Shown in pieces: positions 5,637 through 6,075 of a stretch of DNA of 64,000 nucleotides (position 1 is the first letter of the stretch; the number at the start of each line of letters is the position of its first letter). Position numbers and translations under genes: made by a program. This stretch comes from Eledone cirrhosa (taxonomy: Eukaryota). Under the pieces are notes generated by a model that was not told the DNA's origin, ran no database searches, and was given only the letters and a program-made list of their open reading frames with translations. The stretch spans positions 1 to 64,000 of the forward strand of contig CAXHJY010001069.1 of the NCBI GenBank assembly GCA_964016885.1. The letters run 5' to 3'.

Positions 5637-5757
5637 GGAGGTGAGTTTTATTGTAGTACAATAAAGCAATGCAGATATCGGATAAGAAGCACTCTACAGT
5701 TTGTAGGACTGGAGTATACATAATATAAGATCAAAAGATGGTTAAAGGAGTTCCATG

Positions 5758-5828
5758 TATTTTATTATGCGCATTTCAAAAACAAACATCATCATGCAAT
5801 AATATTTGTGTTTTCATCAGATAAAACA
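5758..5828 (-). ncRNA. Type I hammerhead ribozyme, mirror copy
   Basis: Reverse complement of 5935-6005 within the inverted repeat. Confidence 0.85.
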
Positions 5829-5934
5829 GGAGAACATGATATGAAGGCTAAAAAACACTTGTGGATAGTGCAGATATGTTGATTTAAAACTGCACTATCC
5901 ACAAGTGTTTTTTAGCCTTCATATCATGTTCTCC

Positions 5935-6005
5935 TGTTTTATCTGATGAAAACACAAATATTATTGCATGATGATGTTTGTTTTTGAAATGCGCATAATA
6001 AAATA
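5935..6005 (+). ncRNA. Type I hammerhead ribozyme with palindromic minimal stem III (Penelope-like type)
   Basis: Stem I UUUUAU(5937-42)/AUAAAA(5998-6003); CUGAUGA 5943-49; 16-bp stem II 5950-85 (one mismatch, GCAU loop); GAAA 5986-89; UGCGCA 5990-95; AUA cleavage triplet, cut predicted after 5997. Confidence 0.85.
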
Positions 6006-6035
6006 CATGGAACTCCTTTAACCATCTTTTAATCT

Positions 6036-6075
<40 letters not shown>

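What the first reader, a model, noticed from the sequence alone, without database searches (positions are those of the whole stretch)
5721..6042. Head-to-head twin hammerhead ribozyme cassette
Seen: a near-perfect 153-bp inverted repeat in which each arm holds a complete type I hammerhead (6-8 bp stem I, CUGAUGA, 16-bp stem II with G-U wobbles, GAAA, palindromic UGCGCA, AUA site), pointing outward. Known: minimal type I hammerheads with palindromic stem III occur in pLTRs of Penelope-like elements and in retrozymes, can cleave as dimers, and Penelope insertions often carry inverted pLTRs. Inference: this is a young, ORF-less, ribozyme-bearing retroelement product. Read-through from either strand meets one sense ribozyme preceded by its own antisense, so self-cleavage competes with a 153-bp dsRNA hairpin (possible ADAR/siRNA substrate).
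Basis: partly seen in the sequence, partly recalled or inferred. Interest (0 to 1): 0.85.

Follow-up and report, generated by a model that had tools for sequence, protein, structure and literature searches.

The report
Palindromic stub of a Penelope retrotransposon
The mirror-image pair of hammerhead-ribozyme motifs is real but ordinary: it is one of roughly a thousand short palindromic insertions left by a common jumping gene, and the seams of those insertions suggest they likely form when two DNA copies of the gene's RNA start end are joined head to head.

Summary
Observation confirmed: a 153-bp inverted repeat (1 mismatch) with a type I hammerhead (HHR) in each arm.

It is a ~410-bp insertion (about 5633-6042, wider than reported) of a Penelope-like element (PLE) with Hydra-clade motifs. 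It has an ~88-nt tail on the left arm only, (TA)n flanks and an 82-bp flanking duplication. The genome holds 14,967 exact HHR 29-mers, 921 RT-core matches and 948 palindromes centred near the same point. An 821-codon parent ORF models as TERT-like. Opposite-strand PLE hammerheads 100-700 bp apart are already in print, and this scan noted similar pairs in another genome.

New here is the junction signature. Arms stop at one initiator-like base (24 of 58 sampled), 1,246 carry an extra non-element base like a copied cap, 120 of 123 palindromes pair a long arm with a short arm, and both arms share a subfamily (75 of 89). Few arms end at the ribozyme cut site (24 matches).

Likely mechanism: two primers copy a capped sense RNA to its 5' end and the cDNAs are joined. 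In read-through RNA the hairpin is predicted to sequester the ribozyme completely, not compete with it. Cleavage and expression are untested.

The parts
5550..5631 (+). Left copy of a flanking direct duplication (36-nt unique part plus (TA)n); probable, unusually long target-site duplication
   Evidence: 82-nt exact match to 6072-6153
5633..5720 (-). PLE 'tail' (~88 nt, element +171 to +259), present on the long arm only; in tandem copies it is the 5' UTR stretch leading to the ORF
5721..5873 (-). Rest of the long arm (element +17 to about +170)
5758..5828 (-). Type I hammerhead motif, left copy (predicted cut between 5766 and 5765)
   Evidence: mirror of the right copy
5873..5874 (+). Inversion junction. 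5874 is element +1 (inferred transcription start). The G at 5873 is the long arm's last base and also sits where other copies carry an extra non-element G
5874..6042 (+). Short arm (element +1 to about +170), ending in TATATTA next to (TA)n
5935..6005 (+). Type I hammerhead motif, right copy: stem I, CUGAUGA, 16-bp stem II, GAAA, palindromic stem III AUGCGCAU, predicted cut after 5997
6072..6153 (+). Right copy of the flanking duplication

Best explanation
This is a short, ORF-less, head-to-head insertion of a high-copy Penelope-like retrotransposon with Hydra-clade motifs, likely made when the element's enzyme nicked both strands of a (TA)n tract, primed two cDNAs inside its own capped sense RNA and joined them near the RNA's 5' end. 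SHOWN: family identity, copy numbers, one long (+260) and one short (about +170) arm per palindrome, a pile-up of arm ends at one base (+1) with an extra non-element G, and shared subfamily between the two arms. INFERRED: +1 is the capped transcription start; the two 3' ends are the two internal RT start sites; both cDNAs come from one source RNA or source locus; joining uses the self-complementary ATAT end or 1-4 nt of microhomology. The hammerhead rides along because it lies between +1 and the RT start sites. It likely acts in the parent RNA (as a dimer or protein-assisted); in this palindrome, read-through RNA is predicted to lock it in a hairpin.
For: Family: 14,967 exact 29-mers; 921 RT-core matches. 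L031 holds an 821-codon ORF between inverted HHR arms; its model (pLDDT 83.6) has TERT 3du5 as best Foldseek hit (E 6e-8). Hydra motifs are conserved in 42 aligned proteins as listed in PMC8557442. Anatomy: 120 of 123 distinct short palindromes have one long and one short arm; where starts differ by more than 3 nt, the long arm is the more truncated one in 49 cases against 6. 5' ends: 948 palindromes are centred within ~17 nt of +1 against 34 in a comparable stretch around the HHR cut site; 24 of 58 distinct arms listed stop exactly at +1 (my count). Extra base: 1,246 arms have C on the cDNA strand where the element continues with G; 20 of 31 untemplated inserts begin with C in loci not selected for C. 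The +1 context TTC-A-TA fits the initiator consensus BBCA+1BW (PMC5287114, abstract listing). An extra G marks cap copying at full-length L1 ends (PMC11702581, passage). Both arms share the 7-site subfamily haplotype in 75 of 89 palindromes (24% expected); 35 junction classes were counted, and the commonest recur across subfamilies. A PLE protein nicks and extends both strands, starts RT at two internal sites that define the tail, and does not need HHR cleavage (PMC11167929).
Against: No RNA data: +1 as a capped start is inferred from DNA junctions only (one search listed no RNA holder). Terminal-transferase C addition at any physical RNA end could mimic a cap. Short-read contigs listed no strand-changing joint. 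Samples were chosen by patterns at the hot spot, so class frequencies among palindromes are biased; the long/short asymmetry is not an artefact of that choice. 65 of the 120 long/short palindromes are near-symmetric, which a fold-back of one cDNA explains equally well. The in vitro model comes from a Poseidon-clade element with a 30-40 nt tail, against ~88 nt here. No tree with reference Hydra sequences was built.
Confidence: 0.75

Rival explanations
1. Self-priming or fold-back: one cDNA (or an antisense template, as proposed for rotifer PLEs) folds back at a short palindrome and is copied, giving the head-to-head repeat. The CATATG at +1 would then be a fold-back seed rather than an RNA end.
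For: 20 of the 50 palindromes listed are perfect around CATATG; the arms share haplotype; PMC3846280 (passages) argues for self-priming on an antisense template.
Against: A fold-back from the tailed strand predicts that the short arm is the truncated one, but the long arm is the truncated one in 49 cases against 6. A fold-back from the short strand cannot supply the tail. 86 insertions join a +1 arm to a tail-only arm with almost no palindrome. Single arms also stop at +1 directly against (TA)n. The extra C is not element-templated.
Confidence: 0.15
2. The ~410-bp palindrome is a non-autonomous, MITE-like or retrozyme-like unit that amplifies as a whole.
For: The window's exact junction recurs in 3 of the 50 loci listed, and all 4 sampled loci with it share one haplotype; the copy number is high.
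Against: 35 junction classes in 89 palindromes, with the commonest junctions spread over many subfamily haplotypes; rare variants lie in one arm in 234 cases and in both arms in 11. That haplotype is also the commonest (39 of 89). No tandem direct repeats.
Confidence: 0.06
3. A functional twin-ribozyme or dsRNA regulatory cassette, in which cleavage competes with a hairpin feeding ADAR or siRNA pathways.
For: Intact cores; a long perfect hairpin would be a substrate if transcribed; PLE small RNAs are reported in rotifers (PMC3846280 passage).
Against: HHR pairs have negligible predicted probability in read-through RNA. The locus is one of ~1,000 similar insertions in repeat-rich DNA. Private variation in the core is similar to that in other columns, about 0-2%. 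No expression data.
Confidence: 0.03
4. Assembly or long-read fold-back artefact.
For: The contig is an unplaced-looking C1096; no strand-changing joint was listed in short-read contigs.
Against: The palindrome stops at the element ends, and the flanks are a direct, not inverted, duplication. There is a one-sided tail and one arm mismatch. 948 similar loci occur, including on the largest contigs. Short-read contigs show (TA)n loose ends at both element 3' ends.
Confidence: 0.01

Closest known systems
Hydra clade of C-terminal EN+ Penelope-like elements (Craig et al. 2021, PMC8557442; passages, section 11 and supplement part 2 read)
   Same: DKT, RW(K), CxCX5C linker, no CCHH, CxxC and CxH around the conserved E and N, (TA)n targets, HHR with near-palindromic stem III. 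Penelope-13_HM is listed with an inverted 5'-truncated copy carrying a second, opposite-strand HHR.
   Different: The unit is ~3.9 kb rather than <3 kb; RWT/RWI instead of RWK; an Asn/Ser/Pro-rich insert at about aa 602-677; a 16-bp AU-rich stem II without G-C closure (3-7 bp in the listed Hydra HHRs); an ~88-nt tail; thousands of copies.
Minimal hammerheads of metazoan PLEs (Cervera & De la Pena 2014, PMC4209133; parts 1-2 of 4 read)
   Same: Type I, short palindromic helix III, predicted dimer action, long helix II; dual min-HHRs 100-700 bp apart on opposite strands are explicitly reported.
   Different: No bulge between 9 and 10.1 and no G10.1-C11.1 pair; helix I is 8 bp.
Poseidon PAc in vitro mechanism (Frangieh et al. 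2024, PMC11167929; parts 1-2 of 4 and passages read)
   Same: Two internal RT start sites define the tail; both target strands are nicked and extended; AT-rich targets; HHR cleavage is not needed for insertion.
   Different: Different clade. Here both inferred start sites lie in the 5' UTR, upstream of the ATG at about +339, whereas PAc initiates inside the ORF. The passages I read do not treat inverted junctions or cap copying.
LINE-1 twin priming and cap-derived extra G (PMC11702581; passages only)
   Same: A second primer on the reciprocal end gives an inversion joined by microhomology; extra G at full-length 5' ends.
   Different: In L1 the two cDNAs copy adjacent parts of the RNA. Here they mostly copy the same stretch, giving a palindrome; only the 86 tail-only junctions look L1-like.
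Non-LTR retrozymes (PMC7229834 listing only; bioRxiv 10.64898/2026.07.22.740005 part 1 and passages)
   Same: Short, ORF-less, PLE-derived, type I HHR.
   Different: Retrozymes are tandem direct repeats giving circular RNA; this is an inverted pair on opposite strands.

Membership tests
EN+ Penelope-like element (parent family) | Single ORF with telomerase-like RT | tested here: met
   821-codon ORF with invariant YRDDG region; best Foldseek hit TERT 3du5, E 6e-8. Pfam and PDB sequence searches gave no RT hit.
EN+ Penelope-like element (parent family) | C-terminal GIY-YIG endonuclease | tested here: inconclusive
   Motif LIY...YFG with invariant Y701, Y714, G716, R725, H729, E786, N799 in 42 of 42; Pfam GIY-YIG hit in only 1 of 42 homologs and not in P0001; the domain was not fold-searched alone.
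EN+ Penelope-like element (parent family) | pLTRs in partial tandem and inverted 5'-truncated copies | tested here: met
   Tandem pLTR-ORF-pLTR in L043 and L044; inverted arms flanking the ORF in L031.
EN+ Penelope-like element (parent family) | Tail on one end only | tested here: met
   120 of 123 short palindromes; ~88 nt rather than 30-40.
Hydra clade | DKG changed to DKT; RWK motif | tested here: met
   DKT at 144-146; RW at 58-59, followed by T or I in this family and K in 31 of 42 homologs.
Hydra clade | CxCX5C linker; no CCHH; CxxC and CxH beside conserved E and N | tested here: met
   C680-x-C682-x5-C688; a single unconserved C between GIY and YIG; C780xxC783, E786, N799, C808xH810.
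Hydra clade | Insertion into (TA)n; HHR present | tested here: met
   At least 10 nt of TA directly at the left and right ends in 84% and 88% of 75 scorable palindromes; HHR.
Hydra clade | Generally shorter than 3 kb | tested here: not met
   Start-to-start 3,940 nt in L043. This is a tendency in the paper, not a strict criterion.
Hydra clade | Phylogenetic placement with reference Hydra RTs | not tested
   No reference sequences were available as tool-given data; clade filing rests on motifs.
Type I hammerhead ribozyme | Conserved core, three stems, NUH site | tested here: met
   The three common subfamily variants in stems (element +63, +87, +103) all keep pairing, and none falls in the core. 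51 of 78 relatives carry the fold with varied stems.
Type I hammerhead ribozyme | G10.1-C11.1 pair closing stem II | tested here: not met
   An A-U pair at 5950/5985. A typical feature, not an absolute one; it may lower activity.
Type I hammerhead ribozyme | Self-cleavage | not testable with these tools
   Monomer stem III probability 0.001; intermolecular stem III duplex -10.5 kcal/mol. No clear genomic peak of arm ends at the cut site.
Non-LTR retrozyme | Tandem direct repeats each with an HHR | tested here: not met
   Inverted pair on opposite strands.
MITE / fold-back DNA element | One fixed internal sequence amplified as a unit | tested here: not met
   35 junction classes in 89 palindromes, recurring across subfamilies.

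The most novel reading that the evidence does not exclude
About a thousand palindromes of this family are a genomic record of PLE integration intermediates: paired 'strong-stop' cDNAs primed at both nicks, run off the capped 5' end of a sense RNA (cap copied as an extra G, sometimes with telomerase-like re-copying of the last 8-16 nt) and joined. That would decide the open question of how PLE head-to-head repeats arise in favour of twin priming on sense RNA rather than antisense self-priming, and would show that ribozyme-cleaved RNA is rarely the template in vivo.
Probability: 0.6. Interest if true: 0.6.

Novelty: new member of a known kind. Interest (0 to 1): 0.4.

Why it matters
The locus itself is ordinary repeat DNA. 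Its family is useful because it is young, very abundant and records start sites, stop sites and junction bases at single-nucleotide resolution. PLE reverse transcriptases are the sister group of telomerase, and the origin of their head-to-head repeats and the role of their hammerheads are stated as unresolved in the papers read (PMC3846280, PMC8557442, PMC11167929). The junction spectrum gives exact predictions for 5'-end mapping and for the existing in vitro assay.

Tried and rejected
- Rfam found no hammerhead at gathering score or at E<=10; the hits were hairpin look-alikes.
- The DNA search of the own genome returned nothing because it skips very common words; patterns were used instead.
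- Pfam gave 0 families for three parent ORFs, and the PDB sequence profile search gave 0.
- No RNA holder was listed, which is no evidence on expression. Contigs of 4 runs of unknown type show higher summed depth over +1 to +260 than upstream or in the ORF, but that figure is no copy number, and no strand-changing joint was listed.
- In vivo cleavage footprint: 24 matches end at the cut site, 2 of them small deletions. A control 3 nt away gave 14 matches, about half substitutions or slips. Of 34 palindromes around the site, about half are centred at a TTT/AAA microhomology ~12 nt upstream. At most a weak excess; not claimed.
- The 86 tail-only junctions suggest one-RNA twin priming, but TA microhomology could also explain them.
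- A long flanking duplication like the window's appeared in 1 of 123 palindromes (the other 4 repeat hits were short and not TSD-like). Short 11-15 nt suffix/prefix duplications were seen in 5 of 75 against 0-1 in shuffles; 48 palindromes were dropped there because an end could not be placed.
- No ORF was found for the second family within 1.5 kb of 25 loci.
- Literature: nine searches ran. None returned a paper describing cap-derived G or twin priming at PLE junctions. The library lacks most subscription papers, and only part 2 of 59 of the PMC8557442 supplement was read.

Full report
OBSERVATION. The inverted repeat is real: 5721-5873 pairs with 5890-6042 with one mismatch. Stem II has 15 of 16 standard pairs but closes with A-U rather than G-C, and the cut is predicted after 5997. 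Rfam does not detect it.

THE ELEMENT IS LARGER AND VERY COMMON. A 29-mer across the cut site occurs 14,967 times in the 3.0-Gb genome, against 0 for the reversed control, often as outward-facing pairs from ~200 bp to 5 kb apart. Wider pairs enclose an ORF: L031 has an 821-codon open frame, and L043 and L044 are pLTR-ORF-pLTR tandems. An RT-core 29-mer occurs 921 times. In tandem copies the hammerhead is followed by ~90 nt and then the 5' UTR and ORF. That ~90-nt stretch is present, reversed, at about 5633-5720 on the left arm only. The insertion therefore spans about 5633-6042, lies in (TA)n, and is flanked by an 82-nt direct duplication (5550-5631/6072-6153).

THE PARENT. Pfam and PDB sequence searches are blank. 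A search found 79 homologs at 30-40% identity among 8,000 scored candidates; 41 of them were aligned with P0001. The model (pLDDT 83.6) has telomerase TERT as best structural match. The alignment shows DKT, RW(K), YRDDG, CxCX5C, a GIY-YIG-like motif without CCHH, then CxxC-E and N-CxH. These are the features given for the Hydra clade of PLEs, together with (TA)n targeting and hammerheads (PMC8557442 section 11; supplement table). The GIY-YIG call rests on the motif and on one Pfam hit in 42. No tree with reference sequences was built. Of 78 related metagenomic loci, 51 have a sense hammerhead, 2 an antisense one, and shuffles give 0-1; one (L246) has the same stem I and AUA site. Within the family the three common stem variants keep pairing and the core has no common variant among 253 arms. 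This is weak on its own because the copies are young.

ALREADY IN PRINT. Dual minimal hammerheads 100-700 bp apart on opposite strands, attributed to truncated PLEs, were reported in PMC4209133. Inverted 5'-truncated copies with a one-sided tail are standard PLE anatomy (PMC8557442; PMC3846280). An earlier scan note on another genome reached the same class (e1-7882047); I saw it after forming my reading and did not check its DNA.

WHAT THE JUNCTIONS SHOW. I number from the A at window 5874 as +1.
(a) 3' ends: 120 of 123 distinct short palindromes have one arm ending at about +260 and one at about +170.
(b) 5' ends: 948 palindromes are centred within ~17 nt of +1 against 34 around the ribozyme site. 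24 of 58 distinct arms in the list stop exactly at +1 (my count). At least 1,903 arms stop there with a non-G next base (about 1 in 100 listed is a point change), against 24 matches at the cut site and 14 at a control 3 nt away; the letter filters of these three searches differ.
(c) Extra base: the element continues with G on the cDNA strand, but 1,246 arms have C, out of roughly 6,200 (twice the forward count). 42 of the 100 rows start with C (my count), and 20 of 31 untemplated inserts begin with C in loci not selected for it. Some C's are also explainable by partner microhomology, including the window's own.
(d) The +1 context fits the initiator consensus BBCA+1BW (PMC5287114, abstract). 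An extra G at full-length ends is the mark of cap copying in L1 (PMC11702581, passage).
(e) Where the arms differ in start, the long arm is the truncated one in 49 cases against 6, with 65 near-symmetric; 86 insertions keep only the tail on the long side.
(f) Both arms share a subfamily haplotype in 75 of 89 palindromes (24% expected), there are 35 junction classes, and common junctions recur across subfamilies.
(g) Several junctions repeat the terminal 8-16 nt (11 rows in 9 loci among 176 arm ends).

MECHANISM. A purified PLE protein nicks and extends both target strands, initiates at two internal RNA sites that bound the tail, and does not need ribozyme cleavage (PMC11167929). Combined with (a)-(f), the simplest account has four steps. 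A capped sense RNA starts at +1 in the pLTR. Two nicks in (TA)n prime cDNA at about +170, where the RNA itself reads UAUAUUA, and at about +260. The cDNAs run towards +1, the cap being copied as C. The ends then join through the self-complementary ATAT or short microhomology. Priming on the downstream pLTR of a longer transcript would give the long, ORF-bearing arms. The family facts are shown; the cap, the start sites and the joining are inferred. The main rival, fold-back or antisense self-priming (PMC3846280), fits the symmetric cases but not the direction of the asymmetry, the tail-only class or the extra base.

THE RIBOZYME IN THIS COPY. A transcript from +1 alone is predicted to form stems I and II (probabilities 0.74-0.99) but not stem III (0.001); the stem III palindrome can pair between two molecules (-10.5 kcal/mol). 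In read-through RNA the long hairpin (-268 kcal/mol) removes the fold. The two motifs lie on opposite strands and cannot dimerise in cis.

ARTEFACT. Unlikely: the symmetry ends at the element boundaries, the flanks are direct repeats, and the structure recurs about a thousand times. Short-read contigs show (TA)n at both 3' ends but list no strand-changing joint, so the inversion at this locus was not confirmed by reads.

VERDICT. A new member of a known kind. The locus is ordinary; the family's junction record is a moderately interesting, testable lead on PLE integration. Interest 0.4.

Noticed in passing
window 15800-15998 (related arms at 1599-1648, 8712-8808, 11791-11925, 20243-20377): A second hammerhead-bearing family with the same anatomy: head-to-head palindrome, ~85-nt tail on one arm, (TA)n flanks, and junctions clustered just upstream of the CUGAUGA core. 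Its ORF was not found.
   Followed up: partly
window 23974-24143 and 24221-24390: A 170-bp, 99% inverted repeat beside (TA)n with CTGATGA at 24267 and a palindromic AACGATCGTT; possibly a third PLE family.
   Followed up: no
G000 junctions, e.g. L131, L133, L190, L198, L200: Re-copying of the last 8-16 nt at +1 (two or three tandem copies), reminiscent of telomerase repeat addition.
   Followed up: partly
L031 ORF, residues about 602-677: An Asn/Ser/Pro-rich low-confidence insert between RT and EN that makes the protein ~100 aa longer than most homologs, like the N-rich inserts of rotifer PLEs.
   Followed up: no
window 5550-5631 / 6072-6153: The flanking duplication is far longer than the 11-15 nt seen at other loci. 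Its unique part is ~85% alike to 6416-6449 and 6514-6547, which belong to another inverted repeat at about 6270-6690, so a pre-existing duplication is not excluded.
   Followed up: partly
window 57269-57567 (also 13211, 22787, 47018-47332, 51801, 56958): Another dispersed fold-back repeat family without a hammerhead hit.
   Followed up: no
window 24553-45275: A 47-bp satellite array of about 450 copies, 94% matches.
   Followed up: no
window 2918-3064 (- strand): A 49-codon remnant 41% identical to P0001 residues 526-574, i.e. a diverged related PLE fragment.
   Followed up: no
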